A stretch of 64,000 nucleotides of DNA from Candidatus Eiseniibacteriota bacterium (GTDB lineage Bacteria; Eisenbacteria; RBG-16-71-46; SZUA-252): positions 335,878 to 399,877 of the forward strand of contig CAVUEC010000013.1 of NCBI GenBank assembly GCA_963740415.1, read 5' to 3'. This document shows positions 4,075 to 37,903 of this stretch, one piece after another. How positions within the stretch are numbered: the first letter of the stretch is position 1; each line of letters opens with the position of its first letter. Under the pieces are notes generated by a model, which worked only from the letters and a program-made list of their open reading frames with translations, was not told the origin of the DNA and searched no databases. Position numbers and translations under genes: made by a program.

Positions 4075-5361
4075 ATGCAGGAAGTGGTCCTCATGGATGG
4101 GTTCCGAACGCCGTTCGCAAAGGCGGGAACCGCGCTCGCGTCCACTCCGGCTCGAGAACTGGGCCGGATCGCCGTCTCCGAGCTTCTCGCGAGACACGGC
4201 GTGGATCCCAATCAGGTTGACGAAGTCATCCTCGGCAACGTGGCGCAGCCCTCCGATTCAATGAACATCGCCCGGGTCGTAGCGCTCCTCGCGGGCATTC
4301 CCGAGAGCGTGCCCGCCTACACCGTCCAGCGAAACTGCGCCTCCGGCATGGAGGCGATCGCGCAGGCCCACGACAAGATCGCCGCGGGCCACGCGGAGTT
4401 GATCGTCGCGGGCGGCACCGAATCGATGAGCCAGATCCCGCTCTACATGAGCGATCGCATGACGCATACGTTCGAGCGCCTCGCGCGCGCGCGCTCGCTC
4501 GGCCAGCGCGTGGCCGCGATCGCGGGCTCGCGGCTGGGAGACCTCAAGCCGCGCGTCGCGCTTCTCGAAGGGCTCACCGACCCGGTGTCCGGGCTCAACA
4601 TGGGACAGACCGCCGAGGTGCTGGCGAAGGAATTTGGAATCAGCCGCGAGGCTCAGGATGATTTCGCGCTCCAGAGTCACCGCCGCGCCGTGGCCGCCGG
4701 CGACTCGGGACGCTTCGCCGAGGAAATCGTTCCTGTTTTCGCGGCGCCCTACAAGGAAGCCGTCCTGGAAGACGTCGGACCCAGACGCAACCAATCGCTC
4801 GAGGCGCTGGCCAAGCTCCGGCCCTACTTCGACCGGAAGAACGGCACCGTCACTCCCGGCAATTCCTGCGGGATCACGGACGGCGCCTCGGCGATCATCG
4901 TCGCCTCCGCGGAGAAGGCGCGCTCGCTCGGGCTCAAGCCCATGGGCCGGATTCGCGGCATGGCGTTCGTGGGTCTCGATCCCGCCCGAATGGGGCTGGG
5001 GCCGACGCACGCGACCCCCGTGGCGCTCCGCCACGCGGGCGCCCGGTTCAGCGACATCGGACTCATCGAAATCAACGAGGCGTTCGCGGCCCAGGTGATC
5101 GCCAACGAGATCGCGATGGGATCCGCGAAGTACTGTCGCGAGAAGCTCGGACTGGAGGGCGCGATCGGCGAGATCGACCGCTCGCGGCTGAACGTGAACG
5201 GCGGGGCCATCGCGCTGGGCCATCCCGTGGGCGTGTCGGGCACGCGCCTCGTCGTGACGCTGCTCCGCGAGATGCGGCGCCGCGACGTGTCGATGGGGCT
5301 TGCGGCGCTATGCGTGGGCGGGGGACAAGGGGGAGCGATGGTTCTGGAGCGGGCCGCGTGA
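4075..5361 (+). CDS. fadA: acetyl-CoA C-acyltransferase / 3-ketoacyl-CoA thiolase
   Basis: Thiolase fold: N-terminal active Cys region (NCASGMEAI), C-terminal NVNGGAIALGHPVG...CVGGGQG; 428 aa. Confidence 0.9.
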   Translation: MQEVVLMDGFRTPFAKAGTALASTPARELGRIAVSELLARHGVDPNQVDEVILGNVAQPSDSMNIARVVALLAGIPESVPAYTVQRNCASGMEAIAQAHDKIAAGHAELIVAGGTESMSQIPLYMSDRMTHTFERLARARSLGQRVAAIAGSRLGDLKPRVALLEGLTDPVSGLNMGQTAEVLAKEFGISREAQDDFALQSHRRAVAAGDSGRFAEEIVPVFAAPYKEAVLEDVGPRRNQSLEALAKLRPYFDRKNGTVTPGNSCGITDGASAIIVASAEKARSLGLKPMGRIRGMAFVGLDPARMGLGPTHATPVALRHAGARFSDIGLIEINEAFAAQVIANEIAMGSAKYCREKLGLEGAIGEIDRSRLNVNGGAIALGHPVGVSGTRLVVTLLREMRRRDVSMGLAALCVGGGQGGAMVLERAA

Positions 5362-26961: not shown

Positions 26962-27501
26962 ATGACAACCAATTCCGTGGCGGTCTTCGGCAGCAGCCAG
27001 GCGTCGAGCGATTCCACCCACTACCGGCTCGCCGGCGATTTGGGCGCGGTCTTGGCCCGGCGCGGCGCCGAAGTGCGGTGCGGCGGCTATGGCGGGGTGA
27101 TGGAGGCGGTGGCGGCCGGCGCGAAGCGCGAGGGCGGCCAGGTTTTCGGCTGCACGCTGAAATGGTTCTCCGAGAGCCGAATCCCCAACCGCCATCTCGA
27201 TCAGGTTCACGAGGCCGCGAATCTCCACACCCGGATCGAGTGCCTGCTCCGCGGAGTTCGCGGCGCGGTGGTGCTTCCGGGCGGGGTCGGCACGATGAAC
27301 GAGCTGTTCTGGGTTTGGACGATGCTTCTTCTGGATCGCGAGGAAGGGCCGCAGGCCATCGCCCTCCTGGGCGAGCCCTGGTCGGAATTGATGAGCGTGC
27401 TCAGCCGAAGCTTCGAGTTCGACAGTCCGATCCGGTCCCTGGTGAGCCTGGCGGGGACTCCGGAAGAGGCGGCGGACATCGTGCTGGGTGCGAAGGCGTG
27501 A
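26962..27501 (+). CDS. LOG-family (TIGR00730) cytokinin riboside 5'-monophosphate phosphoribohydrolase-like protein
   Basis: VVLPGGVGTMNELFWVW (PGGxGTxxE LOG signature); 179 aa. Confidence 0.8.
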   Translation: MTTNSVAVFGSSQASSDSTHYRLAGDLGAVLARRGAEVRCGGYGGVMEAVAAGAKREGGQVFGCTLKWFSESRIPNRHLDQVHEAANLHTRIECLLRGVRGAVVLPGGVGTMNELFWVWTMLLLDREEGPQAIALLGEPWSELMSVLSRSFEFDSPIRSLVSLAGTPEEAADIVLGAKA

Positions 27502-28586
27502 GCGTGGCGCGCGTGCACCTTGATTCCCCGCGGTCCGATTTCGAATCCGCAGCCATTGCTGCCTTTCGAATCCAGGCGTCAGCAATCGCCGCATACGCCG
27601 AATACGTCCGCTACCTCGGAATCGACCCAAGGGGAATCAACGATTGGCGCGAGATTCCGCCCGTGCCGTCGTCGGCGTTCAAGTCGCATGATCTGAGCGC
27701 CGCGCCGGCAGGCAGCGAGGCCGCGATCTTCGAGACGAGCGGGACGACGATTTCGCGGCCTGGGCGCGTGCGGCTCGCCTCGACGGATCTCTACGAAGCT
27801 TCGCTCCTCGACAGCTTCGAATCGCATCTTCTTCCCGACGAGGCGCGGCTTCCGGCGATCGTATTTGGTCCAACCCGCGCGGAGGCTCCGCGTTCCTCGC
27901 TCTGGTTCATGGTCGATCGCATCGTCGACAAGCTCACGAGCGGCGGAAGCTGGATCGTCCGTGGGGGAGAGCCGCAGTGGGACGTGGCCGACCAAGTGCT
28001 TGCCCGCGCCGAGGCTGAAGGCACGCCCGTGCTCCTTCTCGGCACGACGCTCCTCTTCATGGCGTACTTCGACCGCCTCGCAGCGGCCAAACGAGGCTTC
28101 GCGCTTCCCCCGGGCTCGCGCGCCATGGACACCGGCGGCGCGAAGGGGCTGCGGACCGAATTCGCGCGCGCCGAAGTCGAAGCGGCGTTCGCCGCGCGTC
28201 TCGGCATTCCGCCCACTCACCTGGTCAACGAGTACGGTATGGCCGAGATGGGGAGCCAGTTCTACGATGACAATCTCGTCGCCGCGCACGAGAAGCGCGC
28301 GCCCTTTCCCGGGAAACAAATACCGCCCTGGGTGCGGACCCGCGTGCTTCATCCCGAAACCATGGAAGAGCAACCCGACGGAGAACGAGGCATCCTGGTT
28401 CACTACGACCTGGCGAATTTCGAGACGCCGCTTGCGATCCAGACCGAGGACATCGGAAGCCGCAGGGACGACCGCCTGATTCTCGAGGGCCGCCTCCTCG
28501 ACGCCGAGCCGCGCGGCTGCTCGCTCGCGTTCGAGCAATTCATCGGGCAGCACGACCGGGGCGACGCTCACGGGGCCCGACGATGA
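27498..28586 (+). CDS. acyl-protein synthetase, LuxE family
   Basis: GTG start overlaps the LOG stop (GTGA); IFETSGTTISRPGRVRL adenylation motif; LuxE-like length (~362 aa). Confidence 0.7.
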   Translation: MSVARVHLDSPRSDFESAAIAAFRIQASAIAAYAEYVRYLGIDPRGINDWREIPPVPSSAFKSHDLSAAPAGSEAAIFETSGTTISRPGRVRLASTDLYEASLLDSFESHLLPDEARLPAIVFGPTRAEAPRSSLWFMVDRIVDKLTSGGSWIVRGGEPQWDVADQVLARAEAEGTPVLLLGTTLLFMAYFDRLAAAKRGFALPPGSRAMDTGGAKGLRTEFARAEVEAAFAARLGIPPTHLVNEYGMAEMGSQFYDDNLVAAHEKRAPFPGKQIPPWVRTRVLHPETMEEQPDGERGILVHYDLANFETPLAIQTEDIGSRRDDRLILEGRLLDAEPRGCSLAFEQFIGQHDRGDAHGARR

Positions 28587-30124
28587 CCTCCGCCTTCTAC
28601 CTGCCACTCGGCCTTGAAGAGGGACTCGAGACCACGATCCAGCGCTTCGGGCCGCCGCACGACGCGCTGGAGCTGCATCTTCCGGTGGTCGGCCCCGACG
28701 ATCTGCTTCGATGGATCGAATCGCTCCGCGCCGCGCGCGAGGAGCATCTGGCGCGGCGGCCCATCGCGAAGACGATCCAGTCTCTCGACCGGGTGAGCCG
28801 GCGATTCCTGGATCCGGGGGACTCGGCGCGCCGCGAGGCGGTGGAGTCTCTCGCCCGCGCGGGACGCTTCACGGCGCCGATGCTCGAACGAGCGCTCGAC
28901 GATGCATTCCAGCCCGTCCTGCGCGGTGGACTCACGAAGTGGATTCAATCCGAGATCGGCGCGGTCCAAGCGCTCGACCGGCCCACGCCCGGACCGGGTG
29001 GAATGACGCGCCGGGCGCACGGGCCCGAATGGATGCTGCAGATCTACGCGGGAAACATCCCGACGCTTCCCGTCTGGCCGATCTACTCCGCGTTGATCCT
29101 CAAGTCGGCGCTGCTGGCCAAAACGTCAGCCCAGGAGCCGCTATTGGCTCCGCTTCTCGCGAAGACGATCGCCGAAGTCGACGAGACGCTGGGCGCGTGC
29201 CTGGCGGTTGTCTGGTGGAAGGGGGGAACGAGCGATCTCGATCGAACCGCGCTCTCGCTTGCCCCCGCGGTGCTCGCGTTCGGAGGCGAGGAAGCGATGG
29301 CGAGCATCGGCCGGCAGTCACCGCGCGACGCCGTCCGCGTGCTGCACGGTCCCAAGGTGAGCATCGGCTACGTCGAGCGACGGGCCTTGAGCTACGCGGC
29401 GCTCCGAAGCCTTGCCACGCGAGCCGCCCTCGACGTCTCGATTTTCGATCAGCAGGGCTGCCTCTCACCGCACGCGTTCTACGTGGAGCGTAGGGGTGAG
29501 GTGTCGCCGGCGAAATTCGCGGAGGCGCTCGCGGCGGCGCTCGAGTCGCAGGCACATCTGCTGCCCCGCGGCGCCATCGCGGTGAAGGATGCGGCGAGCG
29601 TGCAGCTCTTCCGCGCGCAGGCCCGGTTTGAGGCGGCGGGATCCGTCGCCGGTGGATCGGCCGCCGGGTCGCACACCGGCGGGCCAGGCACTCAGGTCCT
29701 CGAATCGCCCCGCGCCACGGTGTGGACCGTGGTGCTGGAGGCCGGCGCGAACTTTGAGCCCGGCCCCTCGCACCGAACGGTGCGGGTCCACGCGATCGAC
29801 GGATTCGACGAGCTCGCGCGCGGCCTTCGCGGCGCGGCCGGATTCATCGAGGCGGTGGGTCTCGAGGCTCGCGGCCCCGAGCGCGCGCGCCTCGCGGCGG
29901 CGTTCAGCGCTCTGGGAATTCCGCGCGTCGCGCCGATCGGCGGCCTGCAACGACCGTCGCCGCTCGGGACGCACGGCGGCGTGCGCCGGCTGCTTCCGTT
30001 CGTGACGTGGACGACCGTGGAGGAAAGTCGTGGGGCCGGGCCTAAGTCGCCAGCCCCCAAGTCGTCGACTTCCAAACCATCGCCACGAGGATCGCGTCGA
30101 AGCGCGCCAAAACGAAGTGGCTGA
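28583..30124 (+). CDS. acyl-CoA reductase, LuxC family (fatty aldehyde-forming); extreme C-terminus possibly overrun (no early stop)
   Basis: ATGA overlap with the LuxE-like gene; catalytic-Cys context IFDQQGCLSPHAFYVE; ALDH-like fold length. Confidence 0.7.
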   Translation: MTSAFYLPLGLEEGLETTIQRFGPPHDALELHLPVVGPDDLLRWIESLRAAREEHLARRPIAKTIQSLDRVSRRFLDPGDSARREAVESLARAGRFTAPMLERALDDAFQPVLRGGLTKWIQSEIGAVQALDRPTPGPGGMTRRAHGPEWMLQIYAGNIPTLPVWPIYSALILKSALLAKTSAQEPLLAPLLAKTIAEVDETLGACLAVVWWKGGTSDLDRTALSLAPAVLAFGGEEAMASIGRQSPRDAVRVLHGPKVSIGYVERRALSYAALRSLATRAALDVSIFDQQGCLSPHAFYVERRGEVSPAKFAEALAAALESQAHLLPRGAIAVKDAASVQLFRAQARFEAAGSVAGGSAAGSHTGGPGTQVLESPRATVWTVVLEAGANFEPGPSHRTVRVHAIDGFDELARGLRGAAGFIEAVGLEARGPERARLAAAFSALGIPRVAPIGGLQRPSPLGTHGGVRRLLPFVTWTTVEESRGAGPKSPAPKSSTSKPSPRGSRRSAPKRSG

Positions 30125-30163: not shown

Positions 30164-30544
30164 TTAAGGAATGACGACCAGCGTCGCGGTCATCGTGGGG
30201 TGAAAGCGACAGTGGTACGGGAACGAGCCTGCGGTACTCATCGTGATGGGCGCGCTCGTCACGCCCGCCGGGATGTCCACCGTCCATGCGCTCCCGTTAG
30301 CGGTCGATGAGTGCGTGATGGAGCGGTTGTTCTTCCACGAGACCGTTTGCCCCACCGTGACGGTGTCGGGGTCGGGGGAAAACGCGCCCGCTCCCATGTC
30401 GGCGACGATGTTGAGGGTCAGGTCGGCGCCACCGCCCCCTCCCGAGTTCATTGGATTCTTGTCGTCACTCCCACACCCATAGCTGAGCAGCACCCCGAGT
30501 CCCAAGCAAACGCCGAACAACACCCACCGATGCGGACTCCTCAT
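30164..30544 (-). CDS. blue-copper (cupredoxin, amicyanin/pseudoazurin-like) lipoprotein
   Basis: GGAGG RBS; signal peptide + Cys MRSPHRWVLFGVCLGLGVLLSYGC; type-1 Cu ligands ...H...YHCRFHPTMTATL (Cys-x2-His-x2-Met). Confidence 0.75.
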   Translation of the reverse strand: MRSPHRWVLFGVCLGLGVLLSYGCGSDDKNPMNSGGGGGADLTLNIVADMGAGAFSPDPDTVTVGQTVSWKNNRSITHSSTANGSAWTVDIPAGVTSAPITMSTAGSFPYHCRFHPTMTATLVVIP

Positions 30545-30786
30545 GGCAACCTCCAAGAGCGGACAAGGGACCGGCTTTTGACCTCCCGCCTCAGCCCGTC
30601 CCCTAGGCTCCTGACCCTATCCCCTAAGCATCGGCAGGATCATCGCACGTATGAACGGGCTAATCTATGTAACTACAGTCACTTATAATTGGGACTTGGC
30701 CCAGCCGCTAGGCTCTGCCGATGAATCCTCTAGACCCTGACGTATGCGTGAGGGTATGATCCGAACGAGGGCAGAGGTAACTCCCA

Positions 30787-31320
30787 ATGGAATCGACGAA
30801 TCCAAAGCCTCTCAAAGTCGGCGACCTGGCGCGCCGGACTGGAAAATCGGTCCGCGCGATCCGCCTCTATGAAGAGCTGGGCCTCCTGAATCCGAAGGCC
30901 CGCTCGCACGGCGGCTTTCGTCTTTATGACGAGGCCGGGGTCACGCGGATTCGGTGGATCGAGCTGCTGCAAGACAGCGGGTTCTCGCTCCACCAGATCC
31001 AGGACCTCCTCTCGGCCTGGCACGGCACGCGATACGGGCCGGACGCGATGGCGGTGGTTCGAGACATCTTTCAGAAGCGGCTCACGGAAACCCGTGATGC
31101 GATCCAGCGCTATCGCGCGCTGGAACGGGAGCTGGAAGGGTCCCTGGAGTATCTAAACACGTGCCAGCAGTGCCGGCCGCCGCGGACCACGTCCGACGAT
31201 TGCCCGCACTGCCCCGTGGATCACGGCATGAAGGGAGAGCCCGCGCTGGTCGCGGGCTTCCATACCGGCCCGCCTCCGGCGGGCTCGATACCGCTCCACG
31301 CGAGCGGGGAGGATTCATGA
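30787..31320 (+). CDS. MerR-family transcriptional regulator with a C-terminal Cys4/His cluster (CxxC-x9-CxHC); first gene of the suf operon
   Basis: HTH LKVGDLARRTGKSVRAIRLYEELGLL; dimerisation helix; C-terminal TCQQCRPPRTTSDDCPHCPVDH; stop overlaps the sufA ATG (ATGA). Confidence 0.8.
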   Translation: MESTNPKPLKVGDLARRTGKSVRAIRLYEELGLLNPKARSHGGFRLYDEAGVTRIRWIELLQDSGFSLHQIQDLLSAWHGTRYGPDAMAVVRDIFQKRLTETRDAIQRYRALERELEGSLEYLNTCQQCRPPRTTSDDCPHCPVDHGMKGEPALVAGFHTGPPPAGSIPLHASGEDS

Positions 31321-31691
31321 GCGAGCTTCAATCCCAGCCGGCGCCGGTGAACCCGGCGGCGTCGCGCACGATCGTCCTGACGCCTTCGGCGATCGAATGG
31401 GTGAAGCGGGTTCGCACCAAGGAAGGGCAGGAAGGGCAGGCGCTCCGTCTGGGAGTCAAGGCGGGCGGGTGCTCCGGCTACAGCTATTTCATGGGCTTCA
31501 CGACCGAGCAGCGCGCCAACGACCACGTGGTCCAGTACGACGGCCTGGCCGTCTACGTGGACCCGCGCTCGATGGAACTCCTCGACGGCACCACCGTCGA
31601 CTACGAACGGGGCCTGCTCGGAAGCGGAATCCAATTCAAGAATCCCCGCGTCAAGAAGTCGTGCGGCTGCGGGGAAAGCTTCAGTCTTTAG
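31317..31691 (+). CDS. sufA: Fe-S cluster insertion protein (A-type carrier, SufA/IscA/ErpA family)
   Basis: GCSGYSY ... CGCGESF conserved Cys motifs. Confidence 0.85.
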
Positions 31692-31704: not shown

Positions 31705-32475
31705 ATGAGCACCAAACCGACGCTCGAGATCAAAGATCTGCACGTCGCCGTCGACGGGAAGGCGATTCTCAAGGGCCTCACGCTCGCGGTGCGGAAGGGC
31801 GAGATTCACGCGCTGATGGGACCCAACGGCTCGGGCAAGAGCACGTTGGCCAACGCGCTCATGGGAAATCCCAAGTACGAGATCACGAGCGGGCAGATTC
31901 TCCTGAACGGGGCGGACGTTCTGGAGCTGAGCGCGGACGAGCGCGCCCGGAAGGGGCTCTTCCTCGCGTTCCAGTATCCGATCGCGATCCCGGGGGTGAG
32001 CGTCGCGAATTTTCTCCGCATGGCGCTCAACGCGCGCCGCAAGGAGATGGGCGAGGAGAAACCGGTCCCGCCCAAGGAATTCCGCACGCTGATGAAGGAG
32101 AAGATGGCGCTCCTCAAGATGGACGACTCGTTCGCGGGCCGATACATCAACGACGGGTTCTCGGGCGGCGAGAAGAAGCGCGCCGAGATTCTCCAGATGG
32201 CGGTCCTTCGCCCGGAGATCGCGATCCTCGACGAGACCGACTCGGGTCTCGACATCGACGCGCTTCGGATCGTCTCCGAGGGCGTGAACGCGCTGTCCGG
32301 CCCGGAGCTGGGCGTGCTTCTGATCACGCACTACCAGCGGATTCTCAACTACATCAAGCCGCAATTCGTCCACGTGCTCGTGGACGGGCGGATCGTGAAG
32401 TCGGGCGGCCCGGAGCTGGCGCACGAGCTGGAGAAGCAGGGATACGACTGGATCCGCGAGGGGCAGGCGGCGTGA
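31705..32475 (+). CDS. sufC: Fe-S cluster assembly ATPase SufC
   Basis: Walker [11 protein letters not shown]; ABC signature FSGGEKKR; LDETDSGLD. Confidence 0.9.
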
Positions 32476-32503
32476 CGCGCCGCGATAGAAAAGGAGTGAA
32501 GCC

Positions 32504-33913
32504 ATGACGCAGCCGCAGGCGCTCGACATACGGGAAGGCTACAAGGAGAAGTTCGGTTTCCACGACGACATCAAGCCGATCTTCAAGTCGCGCAGGGGTC
32601 TCGACAGCGACGTCGTGGCTCAGATCTCGGAGATGAAGGGCGAGCCGGCCTGGATGCGCGACTTCCGCCTCAAGGCGTACAAGGAATTCGAGAAGAAGAA
32701 GCTGCCCCTCTGGGGCGGCAACGTGGCCGAGATCGACTTCCAGAACATCTTCTACTACCTGAAGCCGATGGACGAGCAGGGAAAGACCTGGGACGACGTG
32801 CCGGCCGACATCAAGCGGACCTTCGACAAGCTCGGCATTCCCGAGGCGGAGCAGAAGTTTCTGTCCGGCGTCGGCGCCCAGTACGATTCCGAGGTCGTCT
32901 ATCACAAGATCAAGGAGAGCCTCACGAATCAGGGCGTGATCTTCACGGACACCGACTCCGCGCTGCGCGAGCACCCGGAGCTATTCAAGGAGTACTTCGG
33001 CACACTCATTCCGCCGACCGACAACAAGTTCGCGGCGCTCAACACGGCCGTGTGGAGCGGCGGCTCGTTCATCTACGTGCCGAAGGGCGTCCACATCGAC
33101 ATGCCGCTTCAGGCCTACTTCCGCATCAACGCCCAGAACATGGGCCAGTTCGAGCGGACGCTCATCATCGTGGACGAGGGCGCGTGGGTCCATTACGTCG
33201 AAGGCTGCACCGCGCCGATCTACGCCAGCGATTCGCTTCATTCGGCGGTGGTCGAGATCATCGTCAAGAAGGGCGCCCGCTGCCGGTACACGACCATCCA
33301 GAACTGGTCGAACAACGTCTACAACCTGGTCACCAAGCGCGCCGCGGCCTACCGCGACGCGACGATGGAGTGGGTGGACGCCAATCTCGGCTCCAAGCTC
33401 ACGATGAAGTACCCGAGCGTGTATCTCATGGAGCCCGGCGCGCACGCCGAGATCCTCTCGATCGCGTTCGCCGGGAAGGGCCAGCACCAGGACGCCGGCG
33501 GCAAGGCGATCCACGCCGCGTCCAACACCACCTCGAGCATCGTCTCCAAGTCGATCAGCAAGGACGGCGGCCGCGCCGGCTACCGCGGTCTCATCAAGGT
33601 GGCCAAGGGCGCCAAGGACTGCAAGTCGACGGTGCGGTGCGACGCGTTGCTCCTGGACGAGCAGTCGCGGTCGGACACGTATCCGTACATGGAGATCGAA
33701 GAGGACAAGGTGACGATCGGTCACGAGGCCACGGTCTCCAAGATCGGCGACGAGCAGCTCTTCTATCTCATGAGCCGCGGAATTCCCGAGGCCGAGGCGG
33801 CCGCGATGATCGTGAGCGGATTCATCGAGCCGATCATCAAGGAGCTGCCGATGGAGTACGCGGTCGAGATGAACCGGCTGATCCAACTTCAGATGGAGGG
33901 ATCGGTCGGCTAG
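32504..33913 (+). CDS. sufB: Fe-S cluster assembly protein SufB
   Basis: 469 aa; characteristic SufB C-terminal beta-helix region (...[10 protein letters not shown]..., [16 protein letters not shown]). Confidence 0.9.
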
Positions 33914-33954
33914 ACCGTCCATCCCTCGCTTCCATTACGAATCGGAGAACAGAC

Positions 33955-35318
33955 GTGAACCCAACCGAAACCTTGGCGCCCGACCAGGGCCTGGAGCCGC
34001 TCCGCATGGGCGCGCTGTCGAAAGACGCCGTCGCGCGGATTTCCTCGCTCACCGGCGAGCCCGAATTTCTTCAACGCCGCCGCGAGGCGGCATGGGCGTA
34101 TTGCGAGAAGACGCCCTTTCCCGACGCCGGCTCGAGGAGCTCTGGCGGCGGACCGACATCAGCGGGCTCAAGTGGGACGCGATCGCGGCGATCTCGCCGG
34201 CGCCGCCGGCGATCCGGTCGCTCGACGATCTTCCCGCGTCGCTTCGCGGGGAAATCGGCCCCGCCTCCGAGCGCTCGGCCCTCCTGATCCAAGTTGATTC
34301 CAGCATCATTTGGAGCGAGGTCGATCCCGAGCTGGCCAAGCTTGGGGTCACGGTGCTTCCGCTCGCGGAGGCGGCGCGTAGGGTCCCTTCCCTGGTGGAC
34401 CGATACCTCGGCGAGACGGTCCGATTCGATGAGAGCCGGTTCACGGGTCTGAACACTGCGCTCCTCGCGGGGGGCGCCTTCGTGCACGTCCCGGCGGGCG
34501 TATCGGTGCCTCGCCCCATCCGGATCCTGATTTCGCGTGAGCGGCCCGACAGCGCGACCTTCCCGCACGTCGTGGTGGCCCTGGAGAAGGGAAGCTCGGC
34601 CACGGTCATCGAGGATTACTTCTCGCCGGGCGAGTCCGGCGTCGGCGTGAACGTCGGCGTGAGCGAGATCATGGTGGGCGAGGACGCAAATCTCCACCTG
34701 GCCACGCTCCAGCGCTGGGGACCGACCGTCTACCACTTCGGCGTCGAGCGCGTGCGCATCGCGCGGGACGCGCGGTTCCACTGGACGTTCGCGGGGCTGG
34801 GCGGAAAGCTCACCAAGCTCGACATGGAAATGCACCTGGACGGCGAGGGAAGCGAGGGCAAGTTCTCGGGCTGCTACTTCGGGAACGAGACCCAGCACTT
34901 CGACTTCCACACGTTCCAGAATCACATCGTGGGACATTCGCTGAGCGACCTGCTCTTCAAGGGCGCTCTTCGCGGCCGCGCGCGCACCGTGTACCAGGGC
35001 CTCATCAAGGTCCACAAGAACGCCCAGCGTTCGGACGCCTACCAGGCGAACCGGAACCTGATTCTCTCCGACAAGGCGCGGGCCGACTCGATCCCGAGTC
35101 TCGAGATCGAGGCGAACGACGTCCGCTGCACCCACGGCGCGACGGTGGGCCAGGTGGACGACGAGCAGCTCTTCTACCTCATGGCCCGCGGGCTCAACCG
35201 GAACGAGGCCGAGCGGTTGATCATCGCCGGATTCTTCGAGCCGGTGCTGGAGCGCATCCCGGCCGAGTCCCTGCGCGCGCTGGTGACCGAGGCCGTCGAG
35301 CGGAAAGCGGCGGTCTAG
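33955..35318 (+). CDS. sufD: Fe-S cluster assembly protein SufD, one frame change near 34115
   Basis: GTG start; N-terminus ...AAWAYCEKTPFP then FPTRRLEELWRRTDISGL in the ORF 34092..35318 frame; SufB/D beta-helix. Confidence 0.8.
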
Positions 35319-35320
35319 CC

Positions 35321-36568
35321 GTGAAGGCCGTCGCCCCCGAGCGGCGCGTCGACTTCGCCGCGATCCGGAAGGAATTCCCGATCTTCGAGCGGAAGATCTC
35401 GGGGAAACCGCTCATCTATCTCGACTCCACCGCCACCACCCAGAAGCCGGAGGCGGTGCTCCAGAGCCTCGAGCGCTATTACCGAACGTACAACGCGAAC
35501 ATCCATCGCGGCGTCTACACGATCGCCGAAGAGGCGACCGCCGCCTACGAGGCGGCGCGCGGGAAGGTCGCCAAGTTCCTGAACGCGCGCTCCAACCAGG
35601 AGATCATCTTCACGCGCGGGACCACCGAGTCGGTGAACCTCGTCGCGTACTCGTGGGGCCGGGCCAACGTGAACGCCGGCGACGTCATCGTGCTCACCGA
35701 GATGGAGCATCACTCGAATCTTGTTCCATGGCAGATCCTCGCCAAGGAGCGCGGCGCCACGATCCGCTACATCCCCGTCGATCCCCAAGGACGCCTGGAT
35801 CTGAGCGGCCTGGACCGGCTTCTCTCGGGGCCCGTCAAGCTTCTCTCCATGGCCCACGTCTCGAACGTGCTCGGCACGATCAACCCGGTGGCGGAGGTGG
35901 CGCGCAAGGCCCACGCGGCCGGAGCGGTCGTGATGGTGGACGGCGCGCAGAGCGCGCCCCACATGCCGGTCGACGTGCGCGCGCTCGATTGCGACTTCCT
36001 CGCCCTCTCGGGGCACAAGATGCTCGCCCCGACGGGAATCGGCGCGCTCTACGGAAAGCGGGCGATCCTCGACGCGATGCCGCCCTTCTTCGGCGGCGGC
36101 GAGATGATCCGGGAAGTCCGCCTCGAGGGATCCACCTGGAACGACCTGCCCTTCAAGTTCGAGGCGGGCACCATGAACATCGCGGACACCATCGCGTTCG
36201 GCGCCGCGATCGACTACCTGAACGCGATCGGAATGGACGCGATCCACGCGCACGGCACGGAGCTGATCGAAGAGGCGGCGCGGGTGCTGGGAGCGATCCC
36301 CGGGGTCAAGATGTACGGCCCGCCGCCCTCCGAGCGCGGCGCGATCGTCTCGTTCACGGTCGACGACATTCACGCCCACGACGTGGCCGCGGTCCTGGAT
36401 TCGGAAGGAATCGCCGTCCGCGCGGGACACCACTGCGCGATGCCGCTCCACACCAAGCTCGGGCTCACCGCGACGGCGCGGGCGAGCTTCTACGTCTATA
36501 ACCTCCTCTCCGACGTCGAGCGGCTTGGAGAGGGCATTCGCAAGGCCAAGCAAGTCTTCCACCGATGA
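35321..36568 (+). CDS. sufS: cysteine desulfurase SufS (class V aminotransferase)
   Basis: PLP-Lys context ALSGHKM; active Cys RAGHHCAMPL; 415 aa. Confidence 0.9.
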   Translation: MKAVAPERRVDFAAIRKEFPIFERKISGKPLIYLDSTATTQKPEAVLQSLERYYRTYNANIHRGVYTIAEEATAAYEAARGKVAKFLNARSNQEIIFTRGTTESVNLVAYSWGRANVNAGDVIVLTEMEHHSNLVPWQILAKERGATIRYIPVDPQGRLDLSGLDRLLSGPVKLLSMAHVSNVLGTINPVAEVARKAHAAGAVVMVDGAQSAPHMPVDVRALDCDFLALSGHKMLAPTGIGALYGKRAILDAMPPFFGGGEMIREVRLEGSTWNDLPFKFEAGTMNIADTIAFGAAIDYLNAIGMDAIHAHGTELIEEAARVLGAIPGVKMYGPPPSERGAIVSFTVDDIHAHDVAAVLDSEGIAVRAGHHCAMPLHTKLGLTATARASFYVYNLLSDVERLGEGIRKAKQVFHR

Positions 36569-36969
36569 GCTTCGACGACCTCTACCGCCAGAACATCCTC
36601 GATCACTACCAGACCCCGCGCAATTTCGGCACGCTCGACCATCCCGAAATCAGCGCGGAGGACGCGAACCCGCTCTGCGGCGACAAGATCCGGATCGATC
36701 TGCGCGTCAAGGACGGCGTGATCGCGGACGTCAAATTCTCCGGCAAGGGTTGCGCCATCAGCCAGGCGGCGGCCTCCATGCTGACCGAGGAAATCCGGGG
36801 CAAGTCGCTGGAAGAGGTCAAGCGGATCGGCAAGGACGAGGTCTTGGAGATGCTCGGCATCGAGCTGGGGCCGGTGCGGCTCAAATGCGCCCTGCTTGCG
36901 CTGAAGACGCTGAAAGTGGGAGTCTATGGGATCCAGGGCTGGCCCCACGAGGACGGGGAGGGCGAGTGA
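36565..36969 (+). CDS. sufU: SufU/IscU-like sulfur-transfer scaffold protein
   Basis: NPLCGD ... GKGCAISQA conserved Cys motifs; ATGA overlap with sufS. Confidence 0.85.
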   Translation: MSFDDLYRQNILDHYQTPRNFGTLDHPEISAEDANPLCGDKIRIDLRVKDGVIADVKFSGKGCAISQAAASMLTEEIRGKSLEEVKRIGKDEVLEMLGIELGPVRLKCALLALKTLKVGVYGIQGWPHEDGEGE

Positions 36970-37292
36970 GCGGAGTGACGGCGCGGTTCGTCCGGGTGGG
37001 CCGGGTGGGAGACGTTCCCCAGGGCCGGGCCGAGGTCTTCGACGTGGAAGAGCGTAAGATCGCCGTCTATCGTCTTCCGGACGGATTCTTCGCCATCGAC
37101 GACATCTGCACGCACGACGGCGGACCGCTCGCCGACGGCGACGTGGATGGGGATCAGGTGATCTGCCCCAGGCACGGGGCGAGGTTCAGCATCAAGACCG
37201 GCGCCGCGCTCACCTTCCCGGCGGTCACGCCGGTGGAGAGCTATCCGGTGCGCGTCGAGGGCGAAGAGCTTCTCATCGGCATTCCCGAGTAG
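36964..37292 (+). CDS. Rieske [2Fe-2S] ferredoxin-like protein
   Basis: CTHDGGPL ... CPRHGARF (Cys-x-His ... Cys-x2-His); GTGA overlap with sufU. Confidence 0.75.
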
Positions 37293-37306
37293 CGAGAGGA
37301 ACGATC

Positions 37307-37594
37307 ATGGCAACCGACGCCGAAATTCGAACCGCCCTCGAAGAGGTCGTGGATCCGGAGATTCACCTCAGCATCATCGAGCTCGGTTTGGTGCGCGAGA
37401 TCGATCAATCGGTCGAGCCGCTCGTGGTCCGCATGCTTCTCACCACGCCGTTCTGTCCGTACGCTCCGCAGATCGTGGCGCAGGTCAAGGAAGCCGTGAC
37501 GCGCGTGACCGGAAAGCCGGCGGAGGTGGAGATCATGGCCGAGCAGTGGACGCCGGAGATGATGCCCGACCCCGGGCTTTTGGGGCGCTGGTAG
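37307..37594 (+). CDS. sufT: DUF59 / SufT-like Fe-S assembly factor (MIP18 family)
   Basis: ALEEVVDPEIHLSIIELGLVREI ... TTPFCPYA. Confidence 0.75.
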   Translation: MATDAEIRTALEEVVDPEIHLSIIELGLVREIDQSVEPLVVRMLLTTPFCPYAPQIVAQVKEAVTRVTGKPAEVEIMAEQWTPEMMPDPGLLGRW

Positions 37595-37603
37595 GAGGGT
37601 GAC

Positions 37604-37903
37604 ATGGCCAAGCTTACCGAGTCCGAGATCCGAGAGGCTGTTCAGGAACTTCCCGGTTGGGTGCACCAGGACGGCATGCTGAAGAAGACGTTCTCCCACG
37701 CCTCGTTTCCCGAGGCCGTCGTCTTCGTCAACGCCGTGGCCCATCTGGCGGAACTCGCCAATCATCATCCGGACATCGACGTTCGCTACTCCAACATCAC
37801 GCTCTCGCTCGTGACGCACGATCAGAAGGGAATCACCAACAAGGACGTCGCCTTGGCCAAGCAGGTGGAGGCGATCCGCAAGAAGGCCGGCGTCCCGGCC
37901 TGA
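37604..37903 (+). CDS. phhB: pterin-4a-carbinolamine dehydratase (PCD/DCoH)
   Basis: EAVVFVNAVAHLAELANHHPDIDVRYSNITLSLVTHD (signature [EH]HHP...TH). Confidence 0.8.
   Translation: MAKLTESEIREAVQELPGWVHQDGMLKKTFSHASFPEAVVFVNAVAHLAELANHHPDIDVRYSNITLSLVTHDQKGITNKDVALAKQVEAIRKKAGVPA

What the first reader, a model, noticed from the sequence alone, without database searches (positions are those of the whole stretch)
30557..31691. MerR-family regulator with a Cys4/His C-terminal cluster as the first, translationally coupled gene of the suf operon, divergent from a cupredoxin gene
The suf Fe-S assembly operon here begins with a MerR-type HTH protein whose stop overlaps the sufA start (ATGA). Its C-terminus carries C-x2-C-x9-C-x-H-C, reminiscent of the [2Fe-2S] cluster of SoxR or the metal sites of CueR/ZntR. 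Known suf regulators are IscR, SufR (ArsR/DeoR types), Fur and OxyR. A MerR-type redox/Fe-S- or metal-sensing regulator embedded in the operon would be an unusual control architecture. The 230-bp upstream intergenic region is AT-enriched and contains TTGACC and an exact TATAAT (cacTTATAATtggg). It is shared with a divergently transcribed lipoprotein cupredoxin, hinting at coordinated Cu/Fe-S stress control.
Basis: partly seen in the sequence, partly recalled or inferred. Interest (0 to 1): 0.6.

Follow-up and report, generated by a model that had tools for sequence, protein, structure and literature searches.

The report
MerR-type regulator of iron-sulfur assembly operons

Summary
A 177-aa MerR-family protein (30787-31320) is the first gene of a sufA-C-B-D-S-U-Rieske-sufT operon. 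Its stop overlaps the sufA start (ATGA). It carries C126-x2-C129-x9-C139-x2-C142.

Tools added four things:
1. The four Cys are invariant across a large family, down to about 32% identity. The His is not conserved.
2. In 84 of 84 related loci the gene sits directly upstream of sufA or sufC. More distant members sit upstream of iscS-iscU-iscA-hscB-hscA-fdx, including cultured Sorangium and Minicystis, or next to a cysteine desulfurase or an A-type carrier.
3. A 22-bp dyad (window 30734-30755, ACCCTGACGTATGCGTGAGGGT) lies upstream of the regulator gene in both suf- and isc-linked loci. It resembles the SoxR box.

The cupredoxin neighbour is lineage-specific synteny.

Best reading: an autoregulating, SoxR-related sensor of Fe-S status, probably cluster-binding. 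It plays the role that IscR or SufR plays elsewhere. Cluster binding and the sign of regulation are inferred, not shown. No published description was found.

The parts
30787..31320 (+). MerR-family regulator gene, 177 aa. HTH and wing cover residues 10-77, the dimerisation helix 84-126, and the C-terminal sensor 126-160.
   Evidence: Pfam MerR_1, MerR and MerR-DNA-bind. AlphaFold2 model with pLDDT 92.8. Foldseek matches CadR, NmlR, CueR and SoxR.
31162..31212 (+). Cys4 motif C126-x2-C129-x9-C139-x2-C142, placed immediately after the dimerisation helix. This is the proposed Fe-S or metal ligand set.
   Evidence: All four Cys are invariant in 84 family members down to 32% identity. At least 4 Cys are present in 121 of 134 representatives that cover the region. 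hhalign aligns C126, C129 and C139 with SoxR C119, C122 and C130.
31240..31257 (+). Conserved P-x-L-V-x-G motif (P152-G157), a short helix that follows the Cys4 site.
   Evidence: P152 is present in 75 of 84 sequences, L154 in 69 of 84 and G157 in 57 of 84. AlphaFold2 predicts a helix at 153-159.
30734..30755 (.). 22-bp dyad operator ACCCTGACGTATGCGTGAGGGT, with 8 of 10 symmetric pairs.
   Evidence: It is the only such site in the 64-kb window. It occurs at least once, upstream of the regulator gene, in 87 loci, including isc-linked ones. The background rate is 5e-7 per base.
30731..30760 (+). Promoter TAGACC-18 bp-TATGAT, with the dyad filling the spacer.
   Evidence: It is the only sigma-70-like site found in 30450-30850. 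The hexamers T[AG]GAC[TC] and TA[ACT]GAT are conserved in most of the 51 unique loci of this clade.
31317..31691 (+). sufA (A-type Fe-S carrier). Its start overlaps the regulator's stop (ATGA).
   Evidence: Pfam Fe-S_biosyn 6.9e-18 and TIGR00049 116.7 bits. The overlap is conserved.
31705..37594 (+). Rest of the controlled operon: sufC, sufB, sufD, sufS, sufU, a Rieske ferredoxin and SufT/DUF59.
   Evidence: Pfam hits for sufC, sufU, Rieske and SufT. sufB, sufD and sufS were named from the translations and from tblastn synteny in related loci.
30164..30556 (-). Divergent cupredoxin-like lipoprotein gene. It is a neighbour and not shown to belong to the system.
   Evidence: Weak cupredoxin, plastocyanin and amicyanin hits. 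It is syntenic only in the clade at 62% identity or more.

Best explanation
The gene encodes a member of a large, unnamed MerR subfamily that acts as the dedicated, autoregulating transcription factor of Fe-S cluster biogenesis operons. In this window the operon is suf; in other lineages it is isc.

**DNA binding.** A dimer binds the 22-bp SoxR-box-like dyad at 30734-30755. That dyad fills the 18-bp spacer of the operon's own promoter.

**Sensing.** The sensor is the invariant C-x2-C-x9-11-C-x2-C site at the end of the dimerisation helix. This is the position of the metal or cluster loop in MerR, CueR and SoxR. I infer that the site holds an Fe-S cluster supplied by the machinery the protein controls, possibly through the co-translated A-type carrier SufA. 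Cluster occupancy would then report Fe-S supply against demand.

**Direction of control.** The most likely logic is that the cluster-loaded form holds the promoter off. Loss or oxidation of the cluster, through iron limitation, oxidants or high demand, would then relieve repression. At this MerR-type promoter it might instead switch the protein to an activator.

**Shown:** family membership, Cys4 invariance, operon linkage, and conservation and position of the operator.

**Inferred:** that this protein binds the dyad, that the Cys4 site holds an Fe-S cluster, and the sign of regulation.
For: **MerR fold and domains**
- Pfam domain hits, a confident AlphaFold2 model and Foldseek matches all agree.

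**Linkage to Fe-S biogenesis**
- In 84 of 84 loci at 50-86% identity the gene lies directly upstream of sufA or sufC.
- Members sampled beyond those loci (36-54% identical to the window protein) lie upstream of:
  - iscS-iscU-iscA-hscB-hscA-fdx: P0305, P0283, P0212, Sorangium sp. So ce118 and Minicystis rosea;
  - a cysteine desulfurase: P0165 and P0172;
  - an A-type carrier: P0206.
- One member lies at the end of sufS-sufU-sufT: P0229.

**Cys4 conservation**
- The four Cys are invariant, and at least 4 Cys occur in 121 of 134 representatives covering the region.

**Operator**
- The dyad sits upstream of the regulator gene in 87 loci, against a chance rate of 5e-7 per base.
- The Minicystis isc operator ACCCTCACGCATACGTGAGGGT differs by 1 nt from the reverse complement of the window's suf operator.

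**Resemblance to SoxR**
- hhalign gives 98.7% probability and aligns three Cys with SoxR cluster ligands.
- The L098 operator CCTCACGTATACGTGAGG matches the soxS box in 14 of 18 positions.

**Operator position in other clades**
- In 22 of 24 Limnocylindria-like loci the dyad starts 37 nt after the start of TTGACn (TTGACn-17-TAnnTT), which puts it at about +2 to +23.
- It overlaps the -10 in L098 and lies just after the -10 in Sorangium.
- These are repressor positions.
Against: - No experiment was done. Cys4 with two CxxC knuckles is equally typical of structural Zn or rubredoxin-type Fe sites.
- The best-scoring curated models are CueR, ZntR and CadR, not SoxR.
- The fourth SoxR ligand is not aligned.
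- The coordinates of the AlphaFold2 model could not be inspected, so the Cys geometry is unverified.
- One Cys4-bearing relative (P0233, a tandem MerR) has no Fe-S neighbours.
- The operator sits in different positions relative to the promoter in different clades, so a single sign of regulation may not hold.
- The 18-bp spacer is shorter than the 19-20 bp of classical MerR activators.
Confidence: 0.6

Rival explanations
1. Metal or thiol-redox sensor. The Cys4 site binds Zn(II), Cu(I), Cd(II) or Co(II), or forms disulfides. It would induce Fe-S biogenesis when thiophilic metals or oxidants damage clusters. The protein would not carry a cluster itself.
For: The highest curated-model scores are CueR 68.5, ZntR 60.3/56.4 and CadR 52.7 bits, against 36.1 for SoxR. 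Paired CxxC motifs are classic Zn or redox switches (general knowledge). A cupredoxin gene is adjacent in this clade.
Against: All curated metal-sensor models score far below their cut-offs. No efflux or detoxification gene is linked in any of the 100 related loci fetched. The linkage is always to Fe-S assembly genes. The cupredoxin is absent outside one clade.
Confidence: 0.2
2. The Cys4 site is a purely structural Zn knuckle or a mononuclear Fe(Cys)4 site. The regulator would then respond to another signal, for example direct contact with apo or holo SufA, IscU or another Fe-S factor, or to Fe(II) itself.
For: The CxxC...CPxC spacing resembles zinc-ribbon and rubredoxin knuckles (sequence; general knowledge). 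The AlphaFold2 model folds the region confidently without a cofactor, with pLDDT 84-94. The tight pairing and translational coupling with the A-type carrier would fit protein-protein signalling.
Against: The site sits exactly where MerR-family effectors bind, and three of the Cys align with SoxR cluster ligands. Other families of Fe-S biogenesis regulators (IscR, RisR, SufR) use a cluster as the signal (PMC9973013; 10.64898/2025.12.26.696629).
Confidence: 0.15
3. The MerR gene is an unrelated passenger at the head of the operon, and the dyad is bound by a different factor.
For: No binding experiment was done. A second conserved element (TGCCGATCAA; ATCGGCAG...CTGCCGAT) exists in the same intergenic region.
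Against: Regulator and dyad co-occur across suf, isc and desulfurase contexts and across phyla. The dyad is a MerR- or SoxR-type palindrome.
Confidence: 0.03

Closest known systems
SoxR ([2Fe-2S] MerR-family redox sensor, E. coli)
   Same: - MerR fold, with a Cys4 site directly after the dimerisation helix.
- hhalign gives 98.7% probability, with C126, C129 and C139 aligned to SoxR C119, C122 and C130, including the shared D-C-P.
- The operator is a SoxR-box-like palindrome lying between -35 and -10. It matches the soxS box in 14 of 18 positions in L098 and 12 of 18 in the window.
   Different: - The motif is C-x2-C-x9-11-C-x2-C rather than C-x2-C-x-C-x5-C.
- The TIGR01950 score is 36.1, against a cut-off of 116.9.
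- The spacer is 18 bp rather than 19 bp.
- The target is the protein's own Fe-S biogenesis operon, not soxS or redox-cycling defence genes.
- In several clades the operator lies downstream of a canonical 17-bp-spacer promoter.
IscR / RisR (Rrf2 family) and SufR (COG2345): Fe-S-cluster-containing regulators of isc and suf
   Same: - First gene of, or adjacent to, the isc or suf operon.
- Autoregulatory, with conserved Cys ligands.
- Predicted homeostatic feedback on Fe-S supply. Roles are as described in PMC9973013 and 10.64898/2025.12.26.696629.
- In Sorangium and Minicystis the gene occupies the position that iscR holds in E. coli (the E. coli gene order is from general knowledge).
   Different: - Unrelated fold: MerR rather than an Rrf2 winged helix or COG2345.
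- Different operator and a different Cys motif.
CueR / ZntR / CadR / PbrR / MerR metal sensors
   Same: - These are the best-scoring curated models and PDB relatives over the DNA-binding and dimerisation regions.
- The dyad overlaps the 3' end of the -35 hexamer. Its outer bases ACTCT...AGGGT resemble the ZntR and PbrR sites (from memory).
   Different: - All scores are far below the equivalog cut-offs.
- The ligand set is different.
- No metal efflux or detoxification genes are linked.
[quoted passage not shown]
   Same: A MerR-superfamily protein tied to iron homeostasis.
   Different: MliR lacks an effector domain and has no cysteines. It is a different subfamily with different targets.

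Membership tests
MerR family transcription factors | N-terminal winged HTH (Pfam MerR/MerR_1) followed by a long antiparallel coiled-coil dimerisation helix | tested here: met
   PF13411 at 57.5 bits (cut-off 21.6), PF00376 at 40.9 and PF09278 at 35.6. AlphaFold2 predicts a helix at 84-126. Foldseek matches to CadR, NmlR, CueR and SoxR have E about 1e-5 to 1e-6.
MerR family transcription factors | Palindromic operator inside an over-long (19-20 bp) -35/-10 spacer | tested here: inconclusive
   The dyad fills the spacer of TAGACC-18-TATGAT, so the spacer is 18 bp, not 19-20. In other clades the dyad lies downstream of a 17-bp-spacer promoter.
SoxR (TIGR01950) | Score above the curated equivalog cut-off | tested here: not met
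   36.1 bits against a cut-off of 116.9.
SoxR (TIGR01950) | C-x2-C-x-C-x5-C [2Fe-2S] ligand motif | tested here: not met
   The motif here is C-x2-C-x9-C-x2-C. Only three Cys align with SoxR ligands.
SoxR (TIGR01950) | Binds a [2Fe-2S] cluster | not testable with these tools
   This needs anaerobic purification with UV-vis, EPR or Mossbauer spectroscopy.
CueR / ZntR / CadR-PbrR / MerR metal sensors | Score above the curated equivalog cut-offs | tested here: not met
   CueR 68.5 against 147.4; ZntR 56.4 against 167.95; CadR-PbrR 52.7 against 151.45; MerR 52.8 against 150.85.
IscR/Rrf2 or SufR (COG2345) Fe-S biogenesis regulators | Rrf2 or SufR-type DNA-binding fold | tested here: not met
   Only MerR-family domains were found. 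The fold search returned MerR-family structures throughout the top 50 listed.
IscR/Rrf2 or SufR (COG2345) Fe-S biogenesis regulators | Encoded with, and autoregulating, an isc or suf operon | tested here: met
   Genomic linkage is shown, and the operator lies upstream of the regulator's own gene. Regulation itself is inferred.
SUF Fe-S assembly operon | SufB, SufC and SufD scaffold plus a SufS desulfurase and a sulfur acceptor or carrier | tested here: met
   SufA, SufC, SufU and SufT have Pfam or NCBIfam hits. sufB, sufD and sufS were named from the translations and from tblastn synteny in related loci.
Cupredoxin (type-1 copper protein) | Cupredoxin domain with His...Cys-x2-His-x2-Met ligands | tested here: inconclusive
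   Pfam Cupredoxin_1 scores 20.9 bits, below the 27 cut-off. NCBIfam plastocyanin and amicyanin hits have E about 1e-4. The ligand-like HCRFHPTM is visible in the translation.

The most novel reading that the evidence does not exclude
This would be a third, phylum-spanning class of Fe-S-cluster-sensing master regulators of Fe-S biogenesis. It is MerR-type, evolutionarily related to SoxR, and functionally equivalent to IscR/RisR and SufR. It controls either suf or isc through one conserved operator. It may receive its cluster through the co-translated A-type carrier.
Probability: 0.5. Interest if true: 0.8.

Novelty: new variant of a known kind. Interest (0 to 1): 0.72.

Why it matters
**Current picture.** Control of Fe-S cluster biogenesis is understood mainly through IscR and RisR (Rrf2 family), SufR, Fur and OxyR.

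**What this would add.** A MerR-type regulator heads the suf operon in Eisenbacteria-like and Limnocylindria-like (Chloroflexota) lineages. It heads the isc operon in Polyangiales myxobacteria. That would be an independent evolutionary solution to the same homeostatic problem.

**Scale.** The family is large. At least 3,605 clusters at 90% identity have E ≤ 1e-10, and 884 representatives at 50% identity do so.

**Relation to SoxR.** It would also extend the known uses of the SoxR-like sensor beyond responses to redox-cycling drugs.

**Testability.** The regulator and operator pair is sharply defined here. It also occurs in cultured organisms: Sorangium, Minicystis rosea and Polyangium spumosum. 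The hypothesis can therefore be tested directly.

**Annotation.** Current labels for family members, such as 'copper efflux regulator' and 'TipA', are probably wrong.

Tried and rejected
**Searches and scans that were limited or failed**
- The genome-contig scan with the single protein returned only 4 loci.
- The search for related loci with the 84-sequence alignment failed because the alignment was too diverse. A 12-sequence alignment worked.
- The afdb50 fold library was unavailable.
- Taxon names for distant clusters could not be obtained.

**Ideas tested and set aside**
TTGACC (30578) and TATAAT (30684) are 100 bp apart, and TATAAT is not conserved.
- No further operator copies, and so no wider regulon, were found in the 64-kb window or in the flanks of any locus.
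- An RNA-level role for the conserved element was considered because it is transcribed in the Limnocylindria-like clade. It was set aside for two reasons. The element is a DNA palindrome of MerR or SoxR type. In this window it also lies upstream of the predicted transcription start.
- P0233, a tandem-MerR relative, has no Fe-S context.
- P0263's contig was too short to show context.

**Literature**
- Eight searches found no MerR-type Fe-S biogenesis regulator.
- RisR is Rrf2-type.
- MliR has no cysteines.
- The SufR preprint does not mention MerR.
- Subscription-only papers were not searchable.

Full report
**1. What is in the window**

ORF 30787..31320 (+) encodes a 177-aa protein with MerR_1, MerR and MerR-DNA-bind domains. 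Its TGA overlaps the ATG of sufA (ATGA at 31317-31320), and a GGGGAGG ribosome-binding site lies at 31306.

The genes downstream are sufA, sufC, sufB, sufD, sufS, sufU, a Rieske ferredoxin, SufT/DUF59 and a pterin-4a-carbinolamine dehydratase.

The C-terminus carries C126-x2-C129-x9-C139-P-H-C142.

The divergent ORF 30164..30556 (-) is a cupredoxin-like protein with a Cys-containing signal peptide. It has an amicyanin-type C-x2-H-x2-M, but its database hits are below cut-off.

The 230-bp intergenic region is 56.5% GC, against 66.9% for the window.

**2. The family**

No curated equivalog model claims the protein. Scores are CueR 68.5, ZntR 60.3/56.4, CadR 52.7, MerR 52.8 and SoxR 36.1 bits, all far below their cut-offs.

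It belongs to a large unnamed family:
- 322 proteins with E ≤ 1e-5 in the first search; the 120 listed are 63-95% identical.
- 884 representatives at 50% identity with E ≤ 1e-10.
- At least 3,605 clusters at 90% identity with E ≤ 1e-10 in the profile search.

The four Cys are invariant in an 84-sequence alignment reaching 32% identity. In an unfiltered alignment of the best 150 representatives, 121 of the 134 that cover the region have at least 4 Cys. The exceptions look like frameshifted or truncated fragments.

H141 is not conserved; that column is mostly S, T or A. A P-x-L-V-x-G motif follows the Cys site.

The AlphaFold2 model is confident, with pLDDT 92.8, and matches MerR-family structures. 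The Cys4 region has no sequence match in the PDB. It begins at the end of the dimerisation helix, which is the effector-site position in MerR, CueR and SoxR.

**3. Genomic context**

The four genome loci are three Eisenbacteria and one Limnocylindria. The metagenome scan added 80 loci. In all 84 loci (50-86% identity), wherever downstream sequence exists, the gene is followed directly by sufA, or by sufC in L071 and L080.

The ATGA overlap with sufA recurs in 40 of 45 unique junctions at 62% identity or more, and in 44 of 73 overall.

The cupredoxin and an upstream LuxC gene are present only in the clade at 62% identity or more. That pattern is ordinary local synteny.

Members sampled beyond those loci, 36-54% identical to the window protein, show these contexts:

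| Member(s) | Neighbouring genes |
|---|---|
| P0305, P0283 (Polyangiaceae), P0212, Sorangium sp. So ce118, Minicystis rosea CP016211.1 | directly upstream of iscS-iscU-iscA-hscB-hscA-fdx (fdx not seen downstream of P0212) |
| P0165, P0172 | directly upstream of a class-V aminotransferase (cysteine desulfurase) at the contig end |
| P0206 | paired with an A-type carrier |
| P0229 | follows sufS-sufU-sufT |
| P0233 (tandem MerR) | no Fe-S neighbours |

**4. Operator and promoter**

A 22-bp dyad, A[C/A][T/C]CT-N-AC-N6-GTAAGGGT, lies just upstream of the regulator gene in 87 loci. It usually occurs once per locus, and it matches on both strands.
- The random rate for this match quality is 5e-7 per base.
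- The window copy, ACCCTGACGTATGCGTGAGGGT (30734-30755), is the only one in 64 kb.

The same dyad precedes isc-linked and other distant members:

| Locus | Sequence |
|---|---|
| Sorangium | ACCCTCACGCATACGTAAGGGT |
| Minicystis | ACCCTCACGCATACGTGAGGGT (1 nt from the reverse complement of the window site) |
| L090 | 15 of 15 specified positions match |
| L098 | perfect palindrome CCTCACGTATACGTGAGG |
| L096, L097 | L097 has two sites |
| L099 | related palindrome |

In the window's clade the dyad fills the spacer of T[AG]GAC[TC]-18 bp-TA[ACT]GAT (51 unique loci). An independent scan finds TAGACC-18-TATGAT (30731-30760) as the only sigma-70-like site in the region.

In the Limnocylindria-like clade, a canonical TTGACn-17-TAnnTT promoter starts 37 nt upstream of the dyad in 22 of 24 loci. 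That places the dyad at about +2 to +23.

In L098 the dyad overlaps the -10. In Sorangium it starts 7 nt after the -10.

**5. Relation to SoxR**

A profile comparison of the family with E. coli SoxR gives 98.7% probability. It aligns C126, C129 and C139 with SoxR C119, C122 and C130, including a shared D-C-P. The fourth ligand does not align.

The soxS promoter box CCTCAAGTTAACTTGAGG matches the L098 operator in 14 of 18 positions and the window core in 12 of 18.

The family therefore looks like a SoxR relative in both sensor position and DNA site. It fails the SoxR membership tests on score, motif and spacer.

**6. Mechanism**

- Shown: a MerR-family protein with an invariant Cys4 site is encoded with Fe-S biogenesis operons across phyla. 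A MerR- or SoxR-type dyad sits at its own promoter.
- Inferred (high confidence, about 0.85): the protein binds that dyad and autoregulates the operon.
- Inferred (moderate, about 0.55): the Cys4 site carries an Fe-S cluster and reports Fe-S status. This rests on analogy with IscR, RisR and SufR (PMC9973013; 10.64898/2025.12.26.696629) and on the alignment with SoxR ligands.
- Inferred (low, about 0.4): the holo form is the repressing, DNA-bound form. The reason is that in several clades the operator lies over or downstream of a canonical promoter. Here the operator sits inside an 18-bp spacer, so a MerR-style switch to activation remains possible.
- Speculation: the tight coupling to an A-type carrier suggests carrier-dependent maturation of the regulator.

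**7. Rivals**

- A thiophilic-metal or thiol-redox sensor.
- A structural Zn or mononuclear Fe site, with another signal doing the sensing.
- A passenger gene.

The first two cannot be excluded from sequence alone. The third is very unlikely, given the co-conservation of regulator and operator.

**8. Novelty**

Eight full-text searches found no description of a MerR-type regulator of isc or suf. RisR is Rrf2-type, and MliR lacks cysteines. Source annotations say only 'MerR family', 'copper efflux regulator' or 'TipA'.

Subscription-only literature could not be searched, so prior description cannot be fully excluded.

I rate it a new variant of a known kind. Cluster-sensing Fe-S biogenesis regulators are known, and so are MerR or SoxR sensors. 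The combination, the motif and the operator are new.

Noticed in passing
window 30630-30637 and 30715-30722: ATCGGCAG and CTGCCGAT form an 8-nt inverted repeat 77 bp apart. It brackets the AT-rich core of the intergenic region. The right arm (TGCCGAT[C/G]AA) is conserved in all close relatives, and the left arm as ATCG[G/A]C. It may be a site for a second regulator or for control of the cupredoxin promoter.
   Followed up: partly
It is conserved only in the closest relative, L001, and not in 7 other close loci. It is unlikely to be the suf promoter.
   Followed up: yes
L070 2877-3934: The sufB match is split into two pieces, about 1 kb apart. This could be an intein or another insertion in sufB.
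   Followed up: no
L088 5926-5990: In this isc-linked locus the dyad variant AACCTCACGTGCACGTTAGACT is followed by further tandem copies of GCACGT[T/C]AGAC (three in all).
   Followed up: no
L097 about 4876-4897 and 4948-4969: This isc-linked locus has two operators. One ends 6 nt before the -35 (TTGACG). The other starts 15 nt after the -10 (TAGATT).
   Followed up: partly
window 27078-30124: A LuxC acyl-CoA reductase (28583-30124, Pfam 6.6e-63) is preceded by a possibly LuxE-like ORF (a guess from the translation, not scanned against any library). LuxC is syntenic with the cupredoxin in the Eisenbacteria-like clade.
   Followed up: no
window 36990-37903: The tail of the suf operon carries a Rieske [2Fe-2S] ferredoxin, SufT/DUF59 and a pterin-4a-carbinolamine dehydratase. 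The Rieske gene is also conserved after sufU in the Limnocylindria locus L004.
   Followed up: partly
P0424 (Minicystis rosea CP016211.1, L101 7001-7594) and JGI entries: Family members are annotated as 'transcriptional activator TipA' or 'copper efflux regulator'. Given their isc or suf context, these labels are probably wrong.
   Followed up: partly
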